Numbered from the stretch's first letter, positions 17,356 through 27,408 are shown. The stretch: DNA of 64,000 nucleotides from Candidatus Binatia bacterium (GCA_963664015.2 CAXXLF010000001.1:672001-736000); one strand, 5' to 3'. The notes: generated from the sequence alone by a model not told the origin. Numbers and translations: made by a program.

Positions 17356-18696
17356 GTGACTTTGGCATTACCGCAAGACAAATCTTACACCCTTCCGGCA
17401 GCGGATCTGGTTCAGGCCGTCCAAGACGCACGGCAGCGCACCCATGCCCTCGTGCAAGACCTCACGGACGAGCAGCTGGCAGTGCCGAAACTAGATATCG
17501 TCAACCCGATCATATGGGAGCTCGGGCATATCACATTCTTTTACGACGTATTTGTCTTACGGGTTCTCGGCTCCGATCGGTTTCTCTTGCCCGGCGCAGA
17601 GGATATGTACGATTCGTTCAAGATGCACCACGAGGACCGGTGGAGGCTTCCTCTGCCTTCAAATAAAGAAACCCTGTCCTACATGGATCGAGTCTTGAAT
17701 CGGGTTGTCAATCGACTGGAATCCCACGAGCCCGACCCTCGTGAAACTTACCTGTATCTTCTTTCGGTACTTCATGAAGACATGCACGACGAGGCCTTTA
17801 CCATGGTGCGGCAGACACTCAACTACCCACAGCCTCAACTGAGTTATTTGCCTTCCATTCCAGATAGCGCAAGGTCCAGCGATAATTCGTATCTGGGAGA
17901 CGTTCAGATACCGGGAGGTACTTTCCAATTGGGCGCAGGATCGGACACGCCGTTTCTATTTGATAACGAAAAGTGGTCTCACCCAGTAGAGATTCTCCCC
18001 TTCAGCATTGGGCGTGCCCCGGTGACCGGTGGTCAGTTCGCCGAATTCGTTGACGATCACGGTTACCAGCGCAAGGAGCTTTGGAGTACGGAAGGTTGGG
18101 TGTGGCGTTCCAAGGCCGCAGCGACTCAACCGGTCTATTGGAAGAAACAGGGCAATTCGTGGGTGCAACGCCAGTTTGACCAGTGGATCCCACTGGCAAC
18201 CAATGTCCCGGTGATGCACGTGAACTGGTTTGAGACAGAGGCCTATTGCCGCTGGGCAAAGAGAAGGCTTCCCACGGAGGCCGAATGGGACCTGGCGGCC
18301 AGCGCAGAGCCCACTCCCGACGGCAAAGGCATCACACAACGCAAGCGAAGGTATCCGTGGGGCAACGAACCGCCCACAACCGATCGGGCGAACCTGGATT
18401 CGCGGCACCTGGGTTGTGTGGATGTCGGGGCCTTCCCGGCGGGCGATAGCGCCTTCAGCTGCCGGCAGATGGTGGGCAATGTCTGGGAGTGGACCGAGTC
18501 GTCCTTTTATCCTTTTCCCGGATATCTAGTGGATTGGCCTTACCGAGAATACTCGGCCCCCTGGTTCGGTACCCGCAAGATACTCAAAGGAGGCGCCTGG
18601 GCCACACGATCACGCCTCGCCTGTAACTCGTATCGGAATTTCTTCGAACCCTTCCGCCGTGACGTCTTTGCAGGCTTTCGCACCTGTGCCATTTAA
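17356..18696 (+). CDS. senA: Selenoneine synthase SenA-type (EgtB-like DinB plus FGE-sulfatase domains)
   Basis: NPIIWELGH and HEDMHDE (SenA-type rather than EgtB SPxKWHLAH/HEQQHQE); RLPTEAEW, GNVWEW, FAGFRTCA. Confidence 0.72.
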   Translation: MTLALPQDKSYTLPAADLVQAVQDARQRTHALVQDLTDEQLAVPKLDIVNPIIWELGHITFFYDVFVLRVLGSDRFLLPGAEDMYDSFKMHHEDRWRLPLPSNKETLSYMDRVLNRVVNRLESHEPDPRETYLYLLSVLHEDMHDEAFTMVRQTLNYPQPQLSYLPSIPDSARSSDNSYLGDVQIPGGTFQLGAGSDTPFLFDNEKWSHPVEILPFSIGRAPVTGGQFAEFVDDHGYQRKELWSTEGWVWRSKAAATQPVYWKKQGNSWVQRQFDQWIPLATNVPVMHVNWFETEAYCRWAKRRLPTEAEWDLAASAEPTPDGKGITQRKRRYPWGNEPPTTDRANLDSRHLGCVDVGAFPAGDSAFSCRQMVGNVWEWTESSFYPFPGYLVDWPYREYSAPWFGTRKILKGGAWATRSRLACNSYRNFFEPFRRDVFAGFRTCAI

Positions 18697-18734: not shown

Positions 18735-19955
18735 CTCTCCCGAAGACAGAGTACCTTTGCCACCAAAGGATGCTTAGGTCTTCACCACCGCCTGTGATTA
18801 TTGTGTCGTAGCCTGTGGTTACAAAGCGTACCGGTGGCCTCTGGGTAAAGAGGGAGGCTTTCGGGGGAGTCAAAACGCCTTTGGTAAAGATTTTCCTACA
18901 GACATCTTGAGCGGAAAGTGGCCAAGCCCCAAACCAGCACAACGTCGTGATGGCCAATGGGAAGCCGCACCATATCATTGTCATCCCCGTGCAGACGCTA
19001 AAGCAGTGAATCTCACCGGAGACCTCAGTATCCGAGGTGGGACCATTGCGTAAAAGTGGTACAATCCGATGAACCCCACCCGAGATCGGCTTCAGCATCC
19101 GATGCTGAGGGTCGCTGGGACCTTGCAACCGATACCCTGGGAACTCGCCCTCGATATTTTTGCTGAGATCTCCCAATACGTCATTAAGAAACACGGGGTT
19201 CATGCCTGGGCTCAAAAGATGTTCTCTTACCATTATTTTGAGAATACCTATGCGCTAACCAAGCTGGCACTTCATTACATCGAAGCTCCAGCCTTTGCCG
19301 ACCACGACAATCCATCCGTTGCATCTTCGGCGCCTGGCTTTCGGGACGCGGGGTTCGACATCTTTGCTGCCTCTTACGAAGACTGGTCTTTAGCGGACTC
19401 TCTCTTTATCTCAGGGACTGACCCCTTCGAAACCAAAACCATTATCTGGAACGAATGGATTATGAAGGGAATCGCGACAGGGTTTAAGGTGATATTTGCA
19501 ATGCCACGCAAGACGACGGGCGTGGCCCACGCCGAAAAAACCGACGGGCTACATCTGTGGTTGTTTCCCGGATCCGACACGGTGCTTCCCTAGCCATCGC
19601 TCGTGTAATACTGGAGAAGGAGTGGGAAGCCAAGCAATGGATCGCGAAATACACCAATCACCAATGGGACACCAACTCTGGCTCCGGTCGAGGAACCCGT
19701 AACACCCCATTGCAGTAGCGCACGACATGGGGGCAGATACAAACCAAAGGATTCGTGGACTACAAGCAGTGGATTCTCTCGCATGAGGAATCGAAACTCG
19801 ATGTGGCTGAGAAAATCACCGGTGTTCCACGGGAAAAGATCATCCGCGCCGCGGAGCTGTTGGGCAAGCCCAGAGAAGACGGGACCCGTCCGAAGACCTC
19901 AATAGGCATCGAAAAAGGGAACTATTGGTCGAATAATTATCTCAACACGGCCTCT
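18735..19955 (+). pseudogene. Decayed IdrA/AioA-like molybdopterin oxidoreductase large subunit (N-terminal part only)
   Basis: VPLPPKDA*VFTTACDYCVVACGYKAYRWP; DRLQHPM; HAWAQKMFSYHYFENTYALTKLA; EKGNYWSNNY; in-frame stops, frameshifts, truncated. Confidence 0.85.
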
Positions 19956-20193
19956 GTTCACAATGCGCAGACCTGTACCGGGCACAATGTAAAGTTTAGG
20001 GCCTGTTGCCTCCCATCGCTTGACGCCGTTTCCCCATTTTCCCTTGTAATCCCTTAGTAAACCCGGCATGGTATTGACTGTATATTTATACTCACTTTAG
20101 TAGCTAGAAGCATATAATAGTCGAACCCCCAACGGGTTAGGCCAGGATACCTGAATACCTGGCGTAAGATGCGCGCACCATCACGGAATTTTA

Positions 20194-21924
20194 ATGTCTC
20201 GCGATAACGATAAAAAGCGCTTCCATGTCGTTCTGATCAAACCGTCCCGATATGACGACGATGGCTACGTGATCCGGTGGGCCAGAGCGGTTCTCATATC
20301 CAATTCACTCGCAGCCGTGAATGCGCTCACCGAGGATGCCATGGGCCAGCGGATACTGGGCCCCGACGTTGAAATTATACCCCACTGGTTCGATGAAACC
20401 GTCAAACGAATTCCAACGAAAAAGCTAGCTAAGCAGATTCAGACCTCGGGAGACAAGGCCATCATTTGCATGGTTGGCGTTCAATCCAATCAGTACCCCC
20501 GTGCCGTGGACCTCTGCCGTGAATTCACAGCCTACGGCCTCAAAACCATGATCGGGGGTTTCCACGTGAGCGGTTCCATAGAGATGCTTCCCGAGATACC
20601 CAAAGAAATTCAAAAGGCCATGGATGACGGCACCACCATTGTGGCCGGTGAGATAGAGCAACGTTGGAATGAACTGCTGACGGATGCCTACCATGGGACC
20701 CTGAAACCCTTGTACAATTTTTTGAAGGACAAGCCCCCATTGAACAACATTTCGCCCCCCTTCGCCCCCATTGAAAATCTCAAACATTTTTTACCGTGGC
20801 GCCAGTCTTCCTTTGACGCGGGACGGGGGTGCCCCTTTCAGTGCAGCTTTTGCACCATCATCAACGTTCAGGGTCGCACCATGCGAGCCCGTACGGCGGA
20901 CGACGTGGAGGCGCTTATCCGGAGGAACTTCTCTCAGGGCATACGCGAGTACTTTATTACGGACGACAACTTTGCCCGCAACCCCAATTGGGAGCAAATC
21001 GTCGATCGCATTATTGAATTGAAAGAGAAAGACAAGATTCGCATCTCTCTCATGATCCAGATCGACACGGTGGCACATCGCATCAAGCGGTTTACGGATA
21101 AGCTTGCTCGGGCCGGTTGCCGGCGCGTCTTTATCGGCATGGAGAGCGTCAACCCGGAGAACTTAAAGATCTCGGCAAAATATCAGAACCGTATCTCCGA
21201 ATACCGCAATATGCTCCAGGCATGGCGGGATCGGAACATCGTAACTTATGCCGGATATATTCTCGGTTTCCCTGGCGACACCTACGAATCCATCATGCGG
21301 GACGTAGAGTATCTAAAAAGAGAACTGCCCCTGGAATTTGCGGAGTTTTTCATTATGACCCCGTTGCCCGGCTCCAAGGATCACCAGCAGTTCGTAGCAA
21401 AGGGCATTCCCCTGGACGAGGACCTCAACAACTACGATACGAGCCATGCCTGCATGGACCACCCTAAAATGACCCGGGAAGAACTTCTGCGGGCCTATCG
21501 GGATGCCTGGAAATCTTTTTACAGCCGGGAACACATCGAAACGATCCTGAAACGCCGCAAGGACAAACGACGCAACAGGATGGTCTCGCACCTGCTCTGG
21601 TTCTGCAGCTCGGTTTTTATCGAGAACGTACATCCCCTTTTGGGTGGATTTTTCCGCCTAAAGGGAAGACATCAGCGCTCTCCCCGGTTTCCCCTCGAAT
21701 CGATTCCCGCCTATTACTGGCGAAGGACGCAAGACGTCTCCCTGTGGTTTGTCCGCATGGGTATGCTTATTGTTAAAATGCGCTGGATACTTCGTAAAGC
21801 AAACCGTGACGAGAATAAGGACTACACGGACGTAGCCATCAGTGAAGCTCCACCGCCCGTTCCCAACACCCAGCCTCGTCAGCCAAAGATTGAATTGGCC
21901 GATGCGGTGGAAACCCGTCAGTGA
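20194..21924 (+). CDS. Radical SAM protein with an N-terminal B12-binding-like domain
   Basis: LIKPSRYDDDGY, IGGFHVSG, GRGCPFQCSFC, ITDDNF, FIGMES motifs. Confidence 0.88.
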   Translation: MSRDNDKKRFHVVLIKPSRYDDDGYVIRWARAVLISNSLAAVNALTEDAMGQRILGPDVEIIPHWFDETVKRIPTKKLAKQIQTSGDKAIICMVGVQSNQYPRAVDLCREFTAYGLKTMIGGFHVSGSIEMLPEIPKEIQKAMDDGTTIVAGEIEQRWNELLTDAYHGTLKPLYNFLKDKPPLNNISPPFAPIENLKHFLPWRQSSFDAGRGCPFQCSFCTIINVQGRTMRARTADDVEALIRRNFSQGIREYFITDDNFARNPNWEQIVDRIIELKEKDKIRISLMIQIDTVAHRIKRFTDKLARAGCRRVFIGMESVNPENLKISAKYQNRISEYRNMLQAWRDRNIVTYAGYILGFPGDTYESIMRDVEYLKRELPLEFAEFFIMTPLPGSKDHQQFVAKGIPLDEDLNNYDTSHACMDHPKMTREELLRAYRDAWKSFYSREHIETILKRRKDKRRNRMVSHLLWFCSSVFIENVHPLLGGFFRLKGRHQRSPRFPLESIPAYYWRRTQDVSLWFVRMGMLIVKMRWILRKANRDENKDYTDVAISEAPPPVPNTQPRQPKIELADAVETRQ

Positions 21925-21990: not shown

Positions 21991-22043
21991 CTTTCCCTGC
22001 GATTCAAAATAATCGATCTCCCATCCTTTATTCCTTTCCCGTC

Positions 22044-22071
22044 TTGACAACCGATGCCTCGATGGGTTAAT
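22044..22071 (+). promoter_or_regulatory. Candidate promoter of the hydratase operon
   Basis: TTGACA-16 nt-GTTAAT upstream of ATG 22120. Confidence 0.35.
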
Positions 22072-22119
22072 CGGATCAAAATAGAAGTCAAACACAGATT
22101 TTTAAGGCAGTAAAAGTCA

Positions 22120-22383
22120 ATGGTGGATAAATTTTCTGTCGGCGCAATGGTCAGAATTAAGACCGATAATCCGGGAGATGTAAAAAGGGTTCCCCATTAC
22201 ATCAAGGGCAAAGTAGGAGTTGTTCAAAAGTTCCGCGGAATCATCGACAATCCCAGGGACCATCGCGATGAACGGCCTCCTCTCTACTCTGTTCTGTTCT
22301 CCCCGGCGGACATTTTCACCGAGAAGTCTGAAAATGACAAAGTCGTCGTAGATGTATTCGAAGATTGGATGATTCCCCAATAG
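22120..22383 (+). CDS. Nitrile hydratase beta C-terminal SH3-like subunit (ScnA-like)
   Basis: FSVGAMVRI...KRVPHYIKGKVGVV...PLYSVLF...DIF...D.VVVDVFEDWM; conserved Arg of RxPxY. Confidence 0.85.
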   Translation: MVDKFSVGAMVRIKTDNPGDVKRVPHYIKGKVGVVQKFRGIIDNPRDHRDERPPLYSVLFSPADIFTEKSENDKVVVDVFEDWMIPQ

Positions 22384-22394
22384 GAGATGGAACC

Positions 22395-23321
22395 ATGCCC
22401 GAACCCACATACCACCCCCATACCCATCCCCACGAGCCGATCAAGGAAATCGAGGAGCTTCCCGAGCATGTGATGAGGCTTCTCGCCCTCGGACAGTCCT
22501 TAGGAGAGAAAGGAATCACCGTGGTCCAAGACAGCCGATTTAAAGCGGACGAACTCAACGCCAAAGGGTTGACCCAGGGAGTTCCCTACTTTGAAAAAAG
22601 ATTCATGGCCATGCGAGCAGTCCTCTCGGGCAAAAAGGTCATCTCCGAGAGCGAATGGGAGGACAAAAGACAATATCTCCAAAGGGAGATCTCACAAAAA
22701 GGAGGGGCCCTCGGTTCTTTCGAGCTCGGGGTGATGGCACTGACCCGGTTGATCCTCAAAAAAGGGACCGTGACCCAGAGTACCTTGGATTTCAATTATG
22801 AGAAGATGAAAGCGCGGGTCCCCATGTCCGGCGCCAAGATCGTCGCCAAGGCCTGGGCCGACCCTGCGTTTAAGGCTCATCTTTTGAACAATGCCAAGAA
22901 AGCCATTATGGACTTTAACCCTGTGCTCCTGGAACCTAACAACGGGAAAACCATCGAGGCCTGGGATGTCACCCATCTCGAGGTTTTGGAAAACACGGAA
23001 AAGGTTCGAAACGTCGTCGTGTGCACCCTCTGCTCCTGCTATCCCATGGGCCTACTGGGACAGTCGCCCGAGTGGTACACCAAAGAAGACTACCGGACAA
23101 GAATCGTGAGGGAACCCCGAGCGGTACTGAAAGAATGGGGGACCCAAGTGGGAGCCGACGTCGAACTGAGGGTCTACGACAGCAGTGCTGACGTGCGCTA
23201 CCTGGTGGTTCCTACCCGGCCCCAGGGGACGGAAGCGCATTCGGAAGAGGAACTGGCCGATCTTGTTACGAGGGACAGCCTGATTGGCGTTGGGAACGCT
23301 TTGTCTTCTTATGGGAAATAA
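22395..23321 (+). CDS. Fused nitrile/thiocyanate hydratase: beta-N domain plus Co-type catalytic alpha (ScnB-ScnC-like fusion)
   Basis: Catalytic VCTLCSCYP, GAKIVAKAW.DP.FK, RYLVVPTRP, LVTRDSLIG; first ~100 aa resemble beta-N (PYFEKRF..M..VL..K.VISESE); His-rich N-terminus; GGAG RBS. Confidence 0.88.
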   Translation: MPEPTYHPHTHPHEPIKEIEELPEHVMRLLALGQSLGEKGITVVQDSRFKADELNAKGLTQGVPYFEKRFMAMRAVLSGKKVISESEWEDKRQYLQREISQKGGALGSFELGVMALTRLILKKGTVTQSTLDFNYEKMKARVPMSGAKIVAKAWADPAFKAHLLNNAKKAIMDFNPVLLEPNNGKTIEAWDVTHLEVLENTEKVRNVVVCTLCSCYPMGLLGQSPEWYTKEDYRTRIVREPRAVLKEWGTQVGADVELRVYDSSADVRYLVVPTRPQGTEAHSEEELADLVTRDSLIGVGNALSSYGK

Positions 23322-23336
23322 CTCTTTGGAGAATTT

Positions 23337-23522
23337 ATGGACACTCATGATGTTTCGATTGTACAACCGAAGGTGCTCCCGGTCCCATCCTGGCTCCCGG
23401 GAGTCCTCTCTTTTTTAATGGCTGGTGCGATAGTCCACCTCGCCCTTTTTTCAACCTACCCGCCTATCCACGACACGATGCACATAGTGAGGCACTCCTT
23501 GGCCATTGTTCCATGCCACTGA
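23337..23522 (+). CDS. CbtB-like cobalt transporter small subunit
   Basis: One TM helix followed by the HDTMH..RH....PCH C-terminus typical of CbtB; GGAG RBS. Confidence 0.72.
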   Translation: MDTHDVSIVQPKVLPVPSWLPGVLSFLMAGAIVHLALFSTYPPIHDTMHIVRHSLAIVPCH

Positions 23523-24448
23523 GACTTATTTTAGCATTGTTATGCCTGTCAGCCGTGGAGGTCGAGGCTTCTTCTAATCTACGACTGCTAATTGACCCGC
23601 CTTTGGAGACGGTGCGACCTAATCACGACGAGGCACATCTCACACTTCTCTCTGAGGGCAAGGGGGCCTCTTCAAAAACGGTTCGTTGGAATTTAATCGT
23701 AGAACTGCCACCGCCGGGAATTCTATTTTCAACGGATTTCCCCTGGATCGAAGGGAAAAGACTTCTTGATATCGAGTTTGTCACCGAGGGGGGGAAAGCC
23801 CAATGGAGTATGGTTTTTCCCATACGTGGGCGTTATGAAATCAGGGTTGAAACCGAAATCGAGGGTGAAGCCCCCGGACAGACCACTTTCCCACTGGTCA
23901 TCCGTGAAGACCCGGCACGCTTACTTTATCTGGTGTTATCGCTGGCCGGTGTATTTCTGCTTGGTTGTTTGATAGGCTGGGCGGTTCCTCGCTCGAGAGT
24001 TTTTCTTGCCGTATTGTTTTTTTCTCTTACAGGTGTTGCGGCTCAAGCTCAGTTGGACGTCAATCCTGAAAAAGTGGGAGAGATAACCCCAATGAACCTC
24101 GTTCTCCCCGATTCCCGCGCCACCGGGATAGACTTTTCCATAGTCAAAACGGAGGATCAGCAAAGGCTCTTTCATATCGAGGATGTCACGGTAATGGGGA
24201 AGACTACTTGGAACTATCACTTTTTTGACGGCTCGGTACACCGGATTAGAATGGCGATCCAGTACCCGGGCTTCACCGCGCGCCGAGTGGTTGAGAAGGA
24301 AACCCATGTGGAGGCGAGGCCCCCCCCCCGAACGGTGGTTCTAACGACCTATGGGATTTTTCTCTTACCCTTGATAGTCGGCTGGTTTGTGGGAAGAACG
24401 TTCAAGAAAAGTAAAAAAGGTCGGAAGATCCCCGTACCTTCTGTATAA
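23513..24448 (+). CDS. Hypothetical membrane protein (signal peptide, two beta-rich domains, TM helices)
   Basis: Overlaps the CbtB-like stop; hydrophobic segments mid-protein and at the C-terminus; FSTDFPWIEG segment. Confidence 0.75.
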   Translation: MPLRLILALLCLSAVEVEASSNLRLLIDPPLETVRPNHDEAHLTLLSEGKGASSKTVRWNLIVELPPPGILFSTDFPWIEGKRLLDIEFVTEGGKAQWSMVFPIRGRYEIRVETEIEGEAPGQTTFPLVIREDPARLLYLVLSLAGVFLLGCLIGWAVPRSRVFLAVLFFSLTGVAAQAQLDVNPEKVGEITPMNLVLPDSRATGIDFSIVKTEDQQRLFHIEDVTVMGKTTWNYHFFDGSVHRIRMAIQYPGFTARRVVEKETHVEARPPPRTVVLTTYGIFLLPLIVGWFVGRTFKKSKKGRKIPVPSV

Positions 24449-24521
24449 CCGTCTTTCTCATCTCAAATTATACAGACTTGCCCCTTCTATCTAACTAACC
24501 ACCCATACTAGCCGCGGACGG

Positions 24522-25550
24522 CTACGGCGACCCCCAAACTTTTGTGGCAACATCAACAACGAGCTTGAGCTTGCGCCACTGATTCTCCTCGGTAAGCAGG
24601 TTGCCTTCCATGACAGAGCCAAAACCACACTGAGGACTGAGGGCCAGGTTCTCTATCGGCACGTATTGGCTAGCCGCTTCAATCTGTCTTACCAGTTGAT
24701 CCTCCGATTCCAATCCCGGGACCTTGGTGCTCACCAGCCCCAAAACCACCGTTTTCCCTCTTGGCACGAACCGTAGCGGTTCAAAGGTACCGGCCCTTTC
24801 CGAATCGTATTCGAGCAGGAAGTTATAGACCTCGAGCTCGCCGAATATCTTCTCTGCTATGGCCTCGTACCCCCCTTCAGCAAACCACTGACTGTGGTTG
24901 TTGCCCCGGCACAGGTGAATAGCCGAGATAACACCTGAATCATGGAACCCATCCAAACATGCATTATCGGCGCGAACTGCCTGGTCCCATGCCTCGTCGG
25001 GATTCAAGCCCGTTTCTTGCTTCATGATGCTACGCCATTTGGGATCGATGTAATAACTGTAACGGGGTGCTTCAATTTGTATGTAACGAATATCCTCACT
25101 CACCAAAGAATGGATCTCATTCCTGATGATAGTCACGATGTCCCACAGAAGGGAGGAATGATCTGGATAAAACCAATTCGTGACACCTCTCTTGTAGTGG
25201 ATGGCGGGAAATTGATTTGGCGAGGGGAGCGTGATTTTGATGTCACCGGGGGATTGCCGTTTCATAAAGTCCAGTTCACAGTGGGTCAGTCGTCGGGTCT
25301 GTTTGATCCTACCGACAACGACCCCGGGGACGCTCCGCGCTTCCACCCCACCACTCCCATCGTCCGCCTGCCAGGAGCGGGGAACCGTTTCTTTCTCGTT
25401 AATCCCCTCAACAGAATCACTGAAGTCGCTCATAAAATTTCGGCGCCGGAACTCGCCATCGGTAAAAATTTGTAGGCCAAGCTCTTTTTGCCGCCCGAGT
25501 ACCCTAAGAATATGCCGATCTTCCAGCTCCCTCAGCTTCTGTGTAGGCAT
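24522..25550 (-). CDS. Cobalamin-independent methionine synthase II (MetE catalytic domain) family; 5' end probably truncated
   Basis: TDGEFRR, HLCRGN, LEYD, SPQCGF zinc motifs; upstream frame gives SPLRPKELLEA but lacks the usual HVG start. Confidence 0.8.
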   Translation of the reverse strand: MPTQKLRELEDRHILRVLGRQKELGLQIFTDGEFRRRNFMSDFSDSVEGINEKETVPRSWQADDGSGGVEARSVPGVVVGRIKQTRRLTHCELDFMKRQSPGDIKITLPSPNQFPAIHYKRGVTNWFYPDHSSLLWDIVTIIRNEIHSLVSEDIRYIQIEAPRYSYYIDPKWRSIMKQETGLNPDEAWDQAVRADNACLDGFHDSGVISAIHLCRGNNHSQWFAEGGYEAIAEKIFGELEVYNFLLEYDSERAGTFEPLRFVPRGKTVVLGLVSTKVPGLESEDQLVRQIEAASQYVPIENLALSPQCGFGSVMEGNLLTEENQWRKLKLVVDVATKVWGSP

Positions 25551-25811: not shown

Positions 25812-26006
25812 ATGGAAACCCCAGACCGGCAATCCCTGATCCTGCTACTCAAGCAGGCCGGGATCGAACCCGATGACGATGATCTGGAGCGCTTCAGGCC
25901 GTTGATCGAGCAGTACCTGGAAGCGCTCGGGGAACTCCACTCCTTTGATGTAAGCGACGAAGAGATAGCGCCGACCTTTCGACCCCAATGGTCCGTGAAG
26001 AAATGA
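25812..26006 (+). CDS. Small GatC/AtzG-like amidase partner protein
   Basis: 64 aa, LLKQAGI...L.ELHSFDVSDEEIAPTF, directly upstream of an amidase. Confidence 0.6.
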   Translation: METPDRQSLILLLKQAGIEPDDDDLERFRPLIEQYLEALGELHSFDVSDEEIAPTFRPQWSVKK

Positions 26007-26013
26007 GGACACC

Positions 26014-27408
26014 ATGTCTCTAGCCCACAAACCAACCTTTCACTTGACCATCGACGAGGCACGGCACCTGATCAGGAGCAAGGCCCTCTCTCCCGTGGAG
26101 TTGACCCGGGGATTTCTCGACCGCATCGATTCCGTCGATGGAAAGCTCCATTCCTATCTCGCCGTCAGGGCCGAGGAAGCGCTAGCCGAGGCGCGGGTAG
26201 CGGAAGCCGAGATCCTCCAGGGCTATTATGGTGGGCCACTACATGGAATCCCAGTGGCCGTGAAAGACCAATACGACATCAGCGGCCTTCCCGCTGCCAT
26301 CAGGATGAAAGGACCCAACGAGTATAAGTCAACAGAGGACGCCACGACCGTTGCCAGGTTGAGGGGAGCGGGTGCGGTACTGTTGGGGAAGCTCATGATG
26401 AGTGGCCAACCGGGCAACCTGCCACAGACCTGTAATCCCTGGAACTTGGATTTTTCACCCGGGGGATCCCGTACCGGTCCTGGTGCGGCCACCGCCGCAG
26501 GGCTCTGTATGGCCTCGTTGGGTGAGGATACCGCCGGGTCCATTCGCAATCCGGCCTCGCTGTCAGGTCTGGTGGGATTTAAGCCCACCTACGGCCGCGT
26601 CAGCCGCCACGGGCTGGCCCCACTCAGTTGGTCTCTCGACCACTCGGGTCCCATGACATGGGTCGTTGAGGACATCGCCCACATGCTTCAGGTTATTGCG
26701 GGTTACGACCCCAAGGACCCAACCTCGATTCCAGCCCCCCTTCCCTACTACACAGCATCTCTCCGTGAGGACCTGAAGGGGTATGTTATCGGCATCCCAC
26801 TTAATTATATTGAAGAAACCAAGCCCCGCCTCGACCCGGAGATTCTCACCCTCGTGGATCGAGCCCTCATCGAGTTGGAATCTCTCGGGGCACGTTTGGA
26901 GAATGTCACCTTGCCCAGTCTCAAGGTCGCCACCCTTCCCAATGCGGTCATATACGCTAACGAGTTCTTTGCGGCTCATAGGAACGAGGTGGGCCGGCTA
27001 TTGAAGGCATCTGCAGCTTCGCGGCGAGCCAGATTGTATTTGGGCGCCCTTCCAAGCACCGCCGACTACATCCAGGCCCAACGGGTACGCAGTAGAGTCA
27101 AACGGGAATTCGCGGAGGCCTTCACAAAGATCGACATCCTGGCCCTCCCGGCTCAGCTCCAACCGGCCCCACGCCTCGAAGGAACGGACGCGCTGGCGAC
27201 TCTGTACAAGAACCTGAGACCGGACTTTGCCGGGCCTTTCAATCTGGCCAGGCTCCCGACCCTATGCCTTCCCTGCGGGTTAAACCATGCCCGGATGCCG
27301 GTGGCCCTACAGTTGGTGGCTAAACCGTTCGATAAGCCGACACTCCTCCGGGCGGGATACACCTACCAGCAGCATGCCAAACACTACGAGGAGCGCCCTC
27401 CGATCTGA
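26014..27408 (+). CDS. Amidase signature family protein
   Basis: GPLHGIPVAVKD, PGGSRTG, EDTAGSIRNPA, KPTYGRVS; Lys-Ser-Ser triad present. Confidence 0.9.
   Translation: MSLAHKPTFHLTIDEARHLIRSKALSPVELTRGFLDRIDSVDGKLHSYLAVRAEEALAEARVAEAEILQGYYGGPLHGIPVAVKDQYDISGLPAAIRMKGPNEYKSTEDATTVARLRGAGAVLLGKLMMSGQPGNLPQTCNPWNLDFSPGGSRTGPGAATAAGLCMASLGEDTAGSIRNPASLSGLVGFKPTYGRVSRHGLAPLSWSLDHSGPMTWVVEDIAHMLQVIAGYDPKDPTSIPAPLPYYTASLREDLKGYVIGIPLNYIEETKPRLDPEILTLVDRALIELESLGARLENVTLPSLKVATLPNAVIYANEFFAAHRNEVGRLLKASAASRRARLYLGALPSTADYIQAQRVRSRVKREFAEAFTKIDILALPAQLQPAPRLEGTDALATLYKNLRPDFAGPFNLARLPTLCLPCGLNHARMPVALQLVAKPFDKPTLLRAGYTYQQHAKHYEERPPI

What the first reader, a model, noticed from the sequence alone, without database searches (positions are those of the whole stretch)
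22120..24448. Nitrile/thiocyanate-hydratase-like operon with a rearranged two-gene architecture and its own CbtB-type cobalt module
Seen: an 87-aa free beta-C (SH3-like) gene, then a 308-aa protein fusing a beta-N-like domain to a Co-type alpha domain (VCTLCSCY), then a CbtB-like peptide (HD.MH..RH...PCH) and an overlapping unknown membrane protein. Spacing is tight (11 nt, 15 nt, overlap). Known: classic NHases have alpha and beta subunits; thiocyanate hydrolase and toyocamycin NHase have three subunits; Monosiga NHase is a full beta-alpha fusion. Beta-C plus [beta-N::alpha] matches none of these. GQSPEWY is SCNase-like as I recall it, but the residue after CSCYP is Met (Arg in SCNase, Trp in NHase) and beta-N has one Arg (DSRF). 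No P14K/P15K-type activator or CbtA gene is adjacent. Inference: a Co enzyme with a different substrate, with metal supplied by the His-rich N-terminus (HPHTHPH), CbtB and the membrane protein.
Basis: partly seen in the sequence, partly recalled or inferred. Interest (0 to 1): 0.8.

Follow-up and report, generated by a model that had tools for sequence, protein, structure and literature searches.

The report
Split-beta cobalt nitrile hydratase with metal-uptake genes
This is a real four-gene cluster for a cobalt nitrile-hydratase-type enzyme whose beta subunit is cut in two, with one half fused to the alpha subunit, next to a small conserved membrane pair that probably brings in the metal; it is an undescribed variant of a known enzyme kind, and its substrate is unknown.

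Summary
The window has four tightly packed + strand genes. These are a free 87-aa NHase beta-C protein, a 308-aa beta-N::alpha fusion with an intact Co-type CTLCSC site, a 61-aa CbtB-family peptide and an overlapping 311-aa membrane protein.

The fusion is real. It lies without indels in contigs of independent runs. It is also kept in about 22 protein clusters, and a beta-C gene sits beside it wherever context was seen.

It is best read as the known split-beta ("three-subunit") NHase kind (SCNase, ToyJKL, S. canus AnhDEA) with beta-N joined to alpha. A 2020 review's six gene layouts do not include this one.

CbtB and the membrane protein form an independent, widespread pair: CbtB lies directly upstream in 75 of 80 loci. 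Only some lineages place the pair beside NHase genes, namely the window's Met subclade and a sister-family genus.

The argument "Met instead of Arg/Trp means a new substrate" is weak, because that position is hypervariable. The substrate and the transported metal remain untested.

Verdict: new variant of a known kind, moderate interest.

The parts
22120..22383 (+). Free beta-C subunit (87 aa), the SH3-like C-terminal half of an NHase beta subunit. Arg23 aligns with the second catalytic Arg of the beta subunit.
   Evidence: ORF. PF02211 E 5.4e-16. It aligns to residues 130-218 of P. putida Co-NHase beta and 138-222 of 1ire_B, which puts R23 at the 'hTR' Arg (138+19 = 157). K22-R23 is invariant in 14 of 14 homologues.
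22395..23321 (+). beta-N::alpha fusion protein (308 aa), the catalytic subunit.
   Evidence: ORF. About 22 full-length homologue clusters. AF2 model pLDDT 84.6. Alpha chains score Z 22-23.5 and beta chains Z 5.1-7.9. No indels in independent contigs.
22413..22433 (+). His-rich N-terminal tract HPHTHPH (residues 7-13); a candidate metal-capture site (inferred).
   Evidence: Sequence. H9 is invariant in 24 of 24 rows; H11 and H13 are kept in 18 of 19 group A rows. A profile also aligns it to the His-rich N-terminus of SCNase gamma at E 0.019, which may be compositional.
22476..22685 (+). beta-N-like domain core (residues 28-97) with Arg48, Tyr65 and Arg69.
   Evidence: PF21006 matches residues 28-97 weakly. 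Profile A3 against SCNase beta gives E 1.4e-6, with R48 at R91 and R69 at W112. R48 and Y65 are kept in 24 of 24 rows. R69 is kept in 19 of 19 group A rows, while 5 of 5 group B rows have W.
22722..23294 (+). NHase alpha domain (residues 110-300).
   Evidence: PF02979 E 3.5e-71. The best PDB sequences are Co-type NHase alpha at E 1e-50.
23022..23039 (+). Metal-binding claw C210-T-L-C213-S214-C215 (Co-type CTLCSC, followed by YPM).
   Evidence: C213, S214 and C215 are kept in 24 of 24 rows and C210 in 23 of 24. The excess contig depth at 23010-23045 comes from other NHase genes that share this motif.
23337..23522 (+). CbtB-family peptide (61 aa): one hydrophobic helix (residues 19-41) and a C-terminal H-D-x2-H-x2-R-H-x5-P-C-H motif.
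   Evidence: PF09489 34.3 bits, cut-off 27. It is the only CbtB hit in the genome. Hydropathy. The motif is invariant in the alignment.
23513..24448 (+). 311-aa membrane protein of no known family. It has a signal-like N-terminus and two Ig/FnIII-like beta-sandwich domains, each followed by a membrane helix. It is the constant partner of this CbtB type.
   Evidence: No Pfam or NCBIfam family. AF2 model pLDDT 79.7, with strands at 23-130 and 191-267 and helices at 134-157 and 273-302. Hydrophobic segments at 1-23, 134-160, 163-181 and 274-294. Foldseek gives only generic tandem-Ig matches. CbtB lies directly upstream in 75 of 80 related loci.

Best explanation
The four genes encode a cobalt-type enzyme of the nitrile hydratase family together with a probable metal-uptake pair.

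Enzyme. Its beta subunit is split. The C-terminal SH3-like half is a free 87-aa protein. The N-terminal half is fused in front of the alpha subunit. By homology to solved alpha-beta NHases, the N-domain of the fusion and the free beta-C pack onto the alpha domain. The CTLCSC claw binds non-corrin Co(III), with two cysteines oxidised to sulfinate and sulfenate. Arg48 (from the fused beta-N) and Arg23 (from beta-C) hydrogen-bond those oxidised cysteines, as betaArg52 and betaArg157 do in the Pseudonocardia enzyme. A nitrile-type C-N triple bond is then hydrated to an amide.

Maturation. No activator gene is seen. As reported for the S. canus three-subunit enzyme, the beta-N part may itself act as the metal or swapping chaperone. 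The His-rich N-terminus may help to capture the metal.

Uptake pair. The CbtB peptide and the two-domain membrane protein, translated from overlapping genes, form a separate two-gene unit that most likely imports the metal.

Shown: gene structure, family membership of the parts, conservation of catalytic residues, conservation of the fusion, and gene linkage. Inferred: assembly, cobalt, maturation route, transport, and activity. The substrate is unknown. An invariant Arg (R69) in place of the pocket Trp hints at a small polar or anionic cyano compound rather than a bulky hydrophobic nitrile.
For: Parts and motifs:
- ORFs, HMM hits and motifs.
- beta-N identity: 23 of 24 family members hit PF21006; the N-terminal profile hits SCNase beta at E 1.4e-6; VIA Z is 5.1-7.9 to NHase beta residues 8-125, the first non-alpha rows; Foldseek's first non-alpha hits are SCNase beta chains.
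- Catalytic residues: R48 and Y65 are kept in 24 of 24 rows, C213/S214/C215 in 24 of 24, and beta-C R23 in 14 of 14. R23 maps to betaArg157 of 1ire_B. PDB titles name BR52 and BR157 mutants.

The fusion is real and kept:
- Contigs of two studies are identical, and a 95.5%-identical seawater-run contig has no indels.
- There are 22 homologue clusters.
- Group A is one clade (SH-aLRT 98).
- A beta-C gene lies directly upstream in the window, G002, G004 and L096. The X8 contig also spans beta-C and the fusion.

Precedent: the S. canus AnhD (beta-N), AnhE (beta-C), AnhA enzyme is active without an activator, and AnhD acts as a chaperone (passages of PMC7329996).

Uptake pair and linkage:
- CbtB lies upstream on the same strand in 75 of 80 loci and in 73 of 80 by HMM.
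- No CbtA is in the genome.
- The pair is co-linear with the NHase genes in the window and L096.
- The pair is divergently adjacent to a beta-C plus beta-N-partial::alpha pair in L181, L182 and L183.
- In 13 of 16 genomes of genus g5 that carry the pair, an alpha hit lies 0.8-13.8 kb away on the same contig.
Against: - The window protein's own PF21006 score is below Pfam's cut-off (16.9 against 21.5). Its NCBIfam nitrile_alph score is below the equivalog cut-off (231.4 against 249.85). It is therefore not a textbook NHase.
- No activity, metal content or assembly was measured. The complex prediction could not be run.
- The CbtB/membrane pair is mostly not next to NHase genes (1 of 80 metagenome loci). 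It lies elsewhere in G002 and G004.
- In 20 distant loci examined (the neighbours of 15 were scanned against Pfam), the pair sits beside VOC/glyoxalase, aldehyde dehydrogenase, enoyl-CoA hydratase or cyanase genes.
- No cobalamin or Ni/Co riboswitch lies upstream.
- Cobalt specificity rests only on the name of the CbtB family, which is itself a prediction (passages of PMC2667541).
- The linkage in genus g5 is inherited within kin and counts as one event. An AU test did not reject a single clade of group A plus the g5 proteins (p 0.577). The two linkages therefore may not be independent.
- The amidase 1.5 kb downstream is not conserved beside homologues.
Confidence: 0.72

Rival explanations
1. 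It is a thiocyanate hydrolase (SCNase) in a new subunit layout. It would hydrolyse SCN- to COS and ammonia.
For: The N-domain profile's best PDB sequence is SCNase beta (E 1.4e-6), against E about 1 for NHase beta. Foldseek's first non-alpha hits are SCNase beta chains. SCNase also has a split beta subunit and a His-rich N-terminus on its catalytic subunit. Most group A relatives carry Arg after CSCYP, as SCNase gamma does at Arg136 (PDB title 3vyg 'R136W').
Against: The alpha domain scores higher with nitrile_alph (231.4) than with thiocyan_alph (184.6, cut-off 291.45). The same holds in all 10 relatives tested. The window protein has Met, not Arg, after CSCYP, and Ser47 where SCNase beta has Arg90. 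That these two arginines control SCN- selectivity is recalled from Yamanaka et al. 2013 and was not read here. Arg after CSCYP is the commonest residue among ordinary alpha homologues (161 of 258), so it is not diagnostic.
Confidence: 0.07
2. The N-terminal domain is mainly a built-in maturation chaperone, like the activator or self-subunit-swapping proteins NhlE and P14K, rather than a structural beta half. The active enzyme would then be alpha plus beta-C only, or alpha alone as reported for ToyJ.
For: Activator proteins are reported to resemble beta subunits weakly, and S. canus AnhD (beta-N) acts as a metal and swapping chaperone (passages of PMC7329996). No separate activator was found. 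The N-terminus is His-rich. The g5 relatives keep only the second half of beta-N and seem to lack the Arg48 region.
Against: Arg48 (the betaArg52 equivalent) and Tyr65 are invariant in 24 of 24 fusions, which points to a catalytic-site role. No nitrile_acc hit on the fusion at E <= 0.1. In S. canus the same beta-N protein is both subunit and chaperone, so the two roles do not exclude each other.
Confidence: 0.1
3. The CbtB/membrane pair has nothing to do with the hydratase. It would be a general envelope or metal-homeostasis unit, possibly for another metal or not a transporter at all, that merely lies next door in this lineage.
For: NHase genes are adjacent in 1 of 80 metagenome loci. The pair lies elsewhere in G002 and G004. 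The closest relatives L095 and L097 have the pair beside a MetE-like gene without NHase genes. There is no riboswitch. The large protein has only generic Ig-like folds and no channel-like bundle.
Against: The pair is co-linear with 15-nt spacing in the window and L096 at 70% protein identity. It is directly adjacent, in divergent orientation, to NHase-type genes in three g5 genomes. In 13 of 16 g5 genomes with the pair, an alpha hit lies within 14 kb. It is the only CbtB in a genome that encodes two Co-type NHase-like enzymes.
Confidence: 0.25

Closest known systems
Three-subunit Co-NHase of Streptomyces canus (AnhD-AnhE-AnhA) and toyocamycin NHase ToyJKL of S. rimosus
   Same: The beta subunit is split into a beta-N and a beta-C polypeptide, the alpha subunit is Co-type, and there is no separate activator gene. 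In S. canus the beta-N acts as a chaperone (passages of PMC7329996). Three-gene split forms were also seen here in L031 and L041.
   Different: Here beta-N is covalently fused to the N-terminus of alpha, so there are two genes instead of three. The gene order is beta-C first. The N-terminus is His-rich, the pocket Trp is replaced by Arg69, and the alpha domain has an insertion of about 11 residues (residues 176-192). ToyJKL details are recalled and were not read here.
Thiocyanate hydrolase ScnABC of Thiobacillus thioparus (PDB 2dd4)
   Same: The beta subunit is split and the claw is Co-type CTLCSC. The SCNase beta subunit is the best solved-sequence match of the N-domain. The catalytic subunit has a His-rich N-terminus.
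   Different: SCNase has three separate subunits. The window enzyme lacks Arg at the positions of betaArg90 (Ser47) and gammaArg136 (Met218). The thiocyan_alph score is far below its cut-off.
Eukaryote-type full beta-alpha fusion NHases (Monosiga brevicollis)
   Same: Beta material is fused N-terminally to alpha, with His-rich tracts nearby (passages of PMC7193024). About 39 such long forms were among the 150 best representatives, judged by my length and motif-position rule.
   Different: Those fuse the whole beta subunit. Here only beta-N is fused, and beta-C stays a separate gene.
CbtAB predicted cobalt transporter, and NhlF (NiCoT) beside the nhl genes of Rhodococcus rhodochrous J1
   Same: A CbtB-family peptide is present. 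There is precedent for a cobalt importer encoded beside Co-NHase genes: NhlF is named as a NiCoT in PMC2667541, but its position beside nhl is recalled.
   Different: There is no CbtA in the genome. The partner is instead an unrelated protein with two Ig-like domains and membrane helices. No transport has been shown for either system's CbtB.

Membership tests
Nitrile hydratase family, Co-type (alpha subunit) | Alpha-chain domain with the metal claw C-(T/S)-L-C-S-C; the Co-type reads CTLCSCY | tested here: met
   PF02979 E 3.5e-71. VCTLCSCYP is present, with C213, S214 and C215 kept in 24 of 24 rows. The best PDB sequences are Co-type alpha chains. Z is 22-23.5.
Nitrile hydratase family, Co-type (alpha subunit) | Score above NCBIfam's equivalog cut-off for nitrile_alph (TIGR01323) | tested here: not met
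   231.4 bits against a cut-off of 249.85. Group A relatives score 187.6-239.4, while the three group B fusions tested (P0035, P0056, P0089) pass.
Nitrile hydratase family (beta subunit) | beta C-terminal SH3-like domain with the Arg that contacts the oxidised cysteines (betaArg157 in P. thermophila numbering) | tested here: met
   PF02211 59.3 bits, cut-off 27.7. R23 aligns to residue 157 of 1ire_B and is kept in 14 of 14 rows.
Nitrile hydratase family (beta subunit) | beta N-terminal domain with the conserved Arg (betaArg52) and Tyr (betaTyr68) | tested here: met
   The window protein alone is below Pfam's cut-off (16.9 against 21.5). However, 23 of 24 relatives hit PF21006, the profile hits SCNase beta at E 1.4e-6, and VIA Z is 5.1-7.9. 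R48 and Y65 are kept in 24 of 24 rows. The residue equivalences come from alignment and were not checked in a structure.
Nitrile hydratase family | Non-corrin Co(III) with Cys-sulfinate and Cys-sulfenate; hydration of nitriles to amides | not testable with these tools
   Needs protein chemistry.
Thiocyanate hydrolase (SCNase) | Score above the thiocyan_alph (TIGR03887) cut-off | tested here: not met
   184.6 bits against a cut-off of 291.45.
Thiocyanate hydrolase (SCNase) | Two pocket arginines, betaArg90 and gammaArg136 (their role in selectivity is recalled from Yamanaka et al. 2013) | tested here: not met
   Ser47 aligns with R90, and Met218 follows CSCYP where SCNase has R136 (PDB title 3vyg).
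Three-subunit split-beta NHases (ScNHase, ToyJKL) | beta-N, beta-C and alpha as three separate polypeptides | tested here: not met
   The beta subunit is split, but beta-N and alpha form one 308-aa frame with no stop or indel in independent contigs.
CbtAB cobalt transporter | CbtB peptide | tested here: met
   PF09489 34.3 bits, cut-off 27. The NCBIfam TIGR02459 score is 23.1, below its cut-off of 64.4.
CbtAB cobalt transporter | CbtA partner (PF09490) encoded beside CbtB | tested here: not met
   The neighbour has no CbtA hit. The whole genome has none, and the control genome rang.

The most novel reading that the evidence does not exclude
Group A enzymes are found in Binatia and in one Nitrosarchaeum MAG, with near-identical DNA in runs labelled seawater. 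They may form a distinct hydratase class whose pocket carries an invariant Arg in place of the hydrophobic Trp, on an SCNase-beta-like N-domain. Under this reading they act on a small polar or anionic cyano compound (cyanate, thiocyanate, selenocyanate, cyanamide or a cyano-acid) and release ammonia. In addition, CbtB plus the protein with two Ig-like domains would be a new kind of cobalt importer that works without CbtA and is spread through many soil and marine bacteria.
Probability: 0.15. Interest if true: 0.7.

Novelty: new variant of a known kind. Interest (0 to 1): 0.45.

Why it matters
NHases are industrial catalysts, and the way they receive cobalt is still debated. This is a natural enzyme in which the beta half proposed to act as a chaperone is tethered to alpha, with no activator gene, and with an uptake pair nearby. 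That makes it a compact test case for self-maturation.

The layout is not among the six gene organisations listed in a 2020 review (passages read). My searches found no paper that describes it.

The CbtB/two-Ig-domain pair is common: 110 tblastn-confirmed relatives in the metagenome scan and 32 of 61 related genomes. It is uncharacterised and gives a concrete candidate for CbtA-independent metal uptake.

If the altered pocket (Arg69) means a new substrate, the enzyme could matter for the use of organic nitrogen by uncultured marine and soil bacteria.

Tried and rejected
- **Complex prediction.** It was never accepted because the queue was full. I tried the beta-C + fusion pair first and then the CbtB + membrane pair. 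There is no result of either kind.
- **Single-protein scan of genome contigs.** It found nothing.
- **Rfam.** No family reached the gathering score in the window or in 12 module loci.
- **RNA evidence.** No RNA holder was listed, so expression is unknown.
- **Promoter and terminator scan.** Counts were near the shuffled expectation and gave nothing usable.
- **ESM Atlas for the membrane protein.** It returned only unnamed clusters and a weak YtkA lead carried by 14% of one cluster's members.
- **Foldseek for the membrane protein.** It gave only generic tandem Ig/FnIII matches with rmsd about 20.
- **nitrile_acc search of the genome.** There was no hit, but the control rang nowhere, so this is inconclusive.
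- **Independent gain of the module link in two alpha lineages.** The free tree placed the g5 proteins apart from group A. The AU test did not reject one clade (p 0.577), so I dropped the claim of independence.
- **The upstream radical SAM gene, the downstream MetE-like gene and the amidase as parts of the system.** None is conserved beside group A genes in G002, G004 or L096.
- **Small ORF at 25812-26006 as a GatC/AtzG-like partner of the amidase.** There was no significant Pfam hit.
- **Earlier findings of this scan.** None bear on this locus.
- **Rows dropped from the trees.** My motif regex dropped P0023 and P0144. P0144 and P0035 were dropped.
- **Supplements.** No paper's supplementary files were opened.
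Full report
**Observation**

The window carries four + strand ORFs at exactly the reported places:
- 22120-22383 (87 aa)
- 22395-23321 (308 aa)
- 23337-23522 (61 aa)
- 23513-24448 (311 aa)

The gaps are 11 nt and 15 nt, and the last two genes overlap by 10 nt. A 195-nt gap separates the first gene from an upstream radical SAM gene. A GGAG lies 8 nt before the ATG at 22395.

Pfam calls the first protein NHase_beta_C (E 5.4e-16) and the second NHase_alpha at residues 110-300 (E 3.5e-71). The second protein also has a sub-threshold NHase_beta_N match at residues 28-97 (E 0.0068, 16.9 bits against a cut-off of 21.5). The third is CbtB (34.3 bits against 27). The fourth matches nothing.

NCBIfam gives nitrile_alph 231.4 bits (cut-off 249.85) and thiocyan_alph 184.6 bits (cut-off 291.45).

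**Is the N-terminal 100 aa a beta-N?**

Four lines of evidence agree.
1. Of 24 full-length fused homologues aligned in A1, 23 hit PF21006 at E <= 0.01, the best at 3e-23.
2. A profile of nine N-terminal parts (A3) finds the thiocyanate hydrolase beta subunit 2dd4_B as the best solved sequence. The hit has E 1.4e-6 and pairs profile positions 32-100 with chain residues 73-141. NHase beta reaches only E about 1.
3. The AF2 model of the fusion has pLDDT 84.6 and pTM 0.80. Foldseek matches alpha chains first and then, weakly, SCNase beta chains (probability 0.75).
4. VIA-align scores alpha chains at Z 21.7-23.5. The next rows are eight NHase beta chains at Z 5.1-7.9, covering model residues 3-141 against beta residues 8-125. 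Unrelated chains score at most 4.8. Such Z values are modest on their own.

The catalytic residues are in place.
- Arg48 aligns with SCNase beta Arg91. By Pfam profile position this is about betaArg52.
- Tyr65 aligns with the conserved Tyr of the YY(E)xW motif.
- Both are kept in 24 of 24 fusions.
- Arg23 of the free beta-C aligns with residue 157 of 1ire_B and is kept in 14 of 14 homologues.
- PDB titles name BR52 and BR157 mutants of that enzyme.

**Is the fusion real?**

The whole 22000-24600 stretch lies with no differences in one contig each of runs X1 and X4, which come from two studies. These may include the source sample. A 1404-nt contig of run X8, labelled seawater metagenome, spans 22070-23473 with 63 substitutions and no gap. 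A 95.5%-identical relative therefore keeps beta-C, the fused frame and the start of cbtB.

The word-indexed protein search returned 22 clusters (P0002-P0023) that align over 80-99% of the query at 43-71% identity. One of them is named as coming from a Nitrosarchaeum MAG. Five more distant fusions (P0035, P0056, P0073, P0089, P0103) start with the classical beta 'HDMGG' and have a His-rich linker.

**How rare is it?**

- Among 61 related genomes, 56 have some NHase alpha match. Only G000, G002 and G004, all of the same family, match from the N-terminus.
- The N-domain profile hit only G000 among 401 genomes sampled across the phylum at E <= 1e-6.
- In the exhaustive search of 1.84 billion 50%-identity representatives, 5683 proteins matched at E <= 0.001.
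- Of the 150 best, 14 are single-stretch beta-N::alpha fusions of 283-394 aa. Two of these (P0143, P0144) belong to the window's group.
- By my length and motif-position rule, about 39 of the 150 are full beta-alpha fusions and about 21 carry other N-terminal extensions.
- The nearest named genome records are Candidatus Binatia MAGs.

**What it is closest to**

Passages of a 2020 review list six NHase gene organisations. These include SCNase's three subunits and the eukaryotic full beta-alpha fusion. None is beta-C plus beta-N::alpha (PMC7193024).

Passages of PMC7329996 describe the S. canus enzyme AnhD-AnhE-AnhA, in which AnhD is the N-terminal and AnhE the C-terminal part of beta. No activator gene exists there, cobalt inserts directly, and AnhD doubles as a metal and self-subunit-swapping chaperone. 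The paper also cites the three-subunit ToyJKL.

In the loci fetched here I saw three-gene split forms and another fused form:
- L031, a Dehalococcoidia MAG: beta-N, beta-C, alpha.
- L041, a Dongiaceae MAG: beta-C, alpha, beta-N.
- L058, a Rhodospirillales MAG: a fused form directly followed by an amidase.

The window's enzyme is thus the split-beta kind with one more fusion.

A quick IQ-TREE of 59 alpha domains makes group A one clade (SH-aLRT 98) that includes the Nitrosarchaeum protein. Its sister, with support 83, is a clade of alpha proteins with long N-terminal extensions. A FastTree of 160 rows agrees.

That sister clade holds a second locus of the same genome at G000:C2:1496446-1497829. 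It encodes a 353-aa protein followed by an overlapping 109-aa beta-C. The extension of that protein aligns with the His-rich/helix/DDSR part of group A's N-domain (hhalign probability 75.5%, E 2.4e-5).

**Substrate clues**

Among 258 alpha homologues read, this position is R 161, W 18, S 12, T 12, L 10, M 8, A 7 and others. Eight carry Met there; seven of them are the window's subclade (P0001-P0005, P0011, P0020).

The enzyme is not a canonical SCNase, because Ser47 stands where SCNase beta has Arg90 and the thiocyan_alph score is far below its cut-off.

One feature does set group A apart. Arg69 stands at the position of the pocket Trp (SCNase beta Trp112; 'YYxxW' in classical beta subunits). 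It is Arg in 19 of 19 group A rows and Trp in 5 of 5 group B rows. The g5 relatives also read YFERR.

Group A also has an insertion of about 11 residues before the strand that leads to the claw. This is residues 176-192, which have low pLDDT at 182-189.

That this Trp lines the hydrophobic pocket is recalled from the P. thermophila structure paper and was not read here. The hint at a polar or anionic substrate is therefore an inference only.

**The CbtB/membrane pair**

The 311-aa protein has few close relatives in the word-indexed search (9 proteins). A pattern scan of metagenome contigs, however, gave 110 tblastn-confirmed relatives, of which 80 loci were kept.

- In 75 of the 80 loci a CbtB-like ORF lies just upstream on the same strand. 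The end of the CbtB match lies from 6 nt inside to 99 nt before the start of the membrane match.
- In the five exceptions the membrane match starts within 92 nt of the contig end.
- An HMM of CbtB finds it in 73 of the 80 loci.
- The genome has a single CbtB and no CbtA, and both control searches rang.
- The model (pLDDT 79.7) shows two beta-sandwich domains, each followed by a long helix. Hydropathy adds a signal-like N-terminus and a further hydrophobic segment at 163-181.
- Foldseek finds only generic tandem Ig/FnIII folds.

**Is the pair tied to the hydratase?**

Evidence against a tight tie:
- NHase alpha or beta-C genes lie in only 1 of the 80 loci, L096. This holds by tblastn and by HMM over 487,779 bases, including 20 loci of at least 9 kb.
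- The two closest relatives, L095 and L097, have the pair beside a MetE-like gene without NHase genes.
- G002 and G004 carry the pair far from their NHase genes.
- In 20 more distant loci examined (the neighbours of 15 were scanned against Pfam), the pair sits tail-to-tail with a VOC/glyoxalase gene. Aldehyde dehydrogenase, enoyl-CoA hydratase and arylmalonate-decarboxylase-like genes are often present, and cyanase with an ABC transporter in two loci.
- No riboswitch was found.

Evidence for a tie:
- The co-linear four-gene order recurs in L096 at 70% identity of the fusion.
- In genus g5 of a sister family, 13 of 16 genomes with the pair have an NHase alpha hit on the same contig, 0.8-13.8 kb away.
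- The three g5 loci I opened (L181, L182, L183) show membrane and cbtB on one strand, facing a beta-C gene and an N-extended alpha gene on the other. In the two whose proteins were scanned (L181, L183; L182 was seen by tblastn only), the extended alpha is a beta-N-partial::alpha of 308 and 283 aa, with PF21006 scores of 31.5 and 21.7 bits.

Kin share synteny, so the g5 linkage counts as one event. The free tree puts the g5 proteins outside group A, but an AU test does not reject one clade (p 0.577). One or two origins of the linkage are both possible.

**Verdict**

This is a real, conserved and rare two-gene version of the split-beta Co-type NHase family. It is placed beside an autonomous CbtB-plus-membrane-protein unit that probably supplies the metal.

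- Shown: gene structure, domain homology, residue conservation and linkage.
- Inferred: assembly, cobalt, self-maturation and transport.
- Unknown: the substrate.

My literature searches found no description of this layout or of this CbtB partner. They cover only the open-access library held here, and I opened no supplements.

I rate it a new variant of a known kind, with interest 0.45.

Noticed in passing
G000:C2:1496446-1497829 (outside the window; L177:1446-2829): The same genome has a second NHase-like pair. It is a 353-aa protein (a long N-terminal extension with a His-rich tract, then an alpha domain with CSCYPR) followed by an overlapping 109-aa beta-C. Its alpha domain is sister to group A, and its extension aligns weakly with group A's N-domain. 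Many genomes of the order have alpha hits inside open frames of 330-400 aa.
   Followed up: partly
L181 (G020), L182 (G058), L183 (G014): In a sister family, cbtB and the membrane gene face a beta-C gene and an N-extended alpha gene. In L181 and L183 the fused part is only the second half of beta-N (YFERR helix) with a GHGHDHGHDD linker, and the Arg48 region seems to be missing. L182 was seen by tblastn only. L183 continues with an isochorismatase-family hydrolase, a possible amidase.
   Followed up: partly
window 24522-25550 (-): A 342-aa MetE C-terminal-domain-only protein (PF01717; NCBIfam PRK06520-like) lies convergent to the membrane gene. Homologues at 71-73% identity lie divergently next to cbtB in L095 and L097, so it travels with the CbtB pair more faithfully than the NHase genes do.
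   Followed up: partly
window 25812-27408 (+): A 64-aa ORF lies 7 nt before a 464-aa amidase-signature enzyme (PF01425, E 1.2e-93). The layout recalls small-subunit-plus-GatA-like amidases, but the small ORF has no significant Pfam hit, and the pair is not conserved beside group A genes elsewhere.
   Followed up: partly
window 19069-20057 (+): Short ORFs lie between larger genes, one with a partial molybdopterin oxidoreductase domain (174 aa, PF00384 positions 1-150 of 353). They look like remnants of a broken molybdoenzyme gene.
   Followed up: no
window 17356-18696 and 20194-21924 (+): An EgtB/OvoA-like protein (DinB_2 + FGE-sulfatase) and a 576-aa B12-binding-type radical SAM protein lie upstream. 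The radical SAM gene is 81% identical in L095, where no NHase genes lie between it and the CbtB pair.
   Followed up: partly
L098-L174 (metagenome loci), e.g. L115, L123, L143, L155, L171: Distant CbtB/membrane pairs (27-34% identity) sit tail-to-tail with a VOC/glyoxalase gene of about 266 aa. This is often followed by aldehyde dehydrogenase and enoyl-CoA hydratase genes. Two loci carry cyanase plus a nitrate/cyanate-type ABC transporter there. What links these genes is unexplained.
   Followed up: partly
G003:C1:1854-2858, G034:C1:1359449-1360024, G053:C364:2267-3249, G028 and G022 remnants: Several relatives have in-frame stops (2 TAG, 3 TGA, 1 TGA) or only fragments of the membrane gene. 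This suggests repeated decay of the pair in some genomes.
   Followed up: no
L031, L041, L058 (genome-contig loci): Other split or fused NHase layouts occur in named MAGs. Dehalococcoidia has beta-N, beta-C and a His-rich alpha as three genes. Dongiaceae has beta-C, alpha, beta-N. Rhodospirillales has a beta-N::alpha of 323 aa overlapping a downstream amidase.
   Followed up: partly
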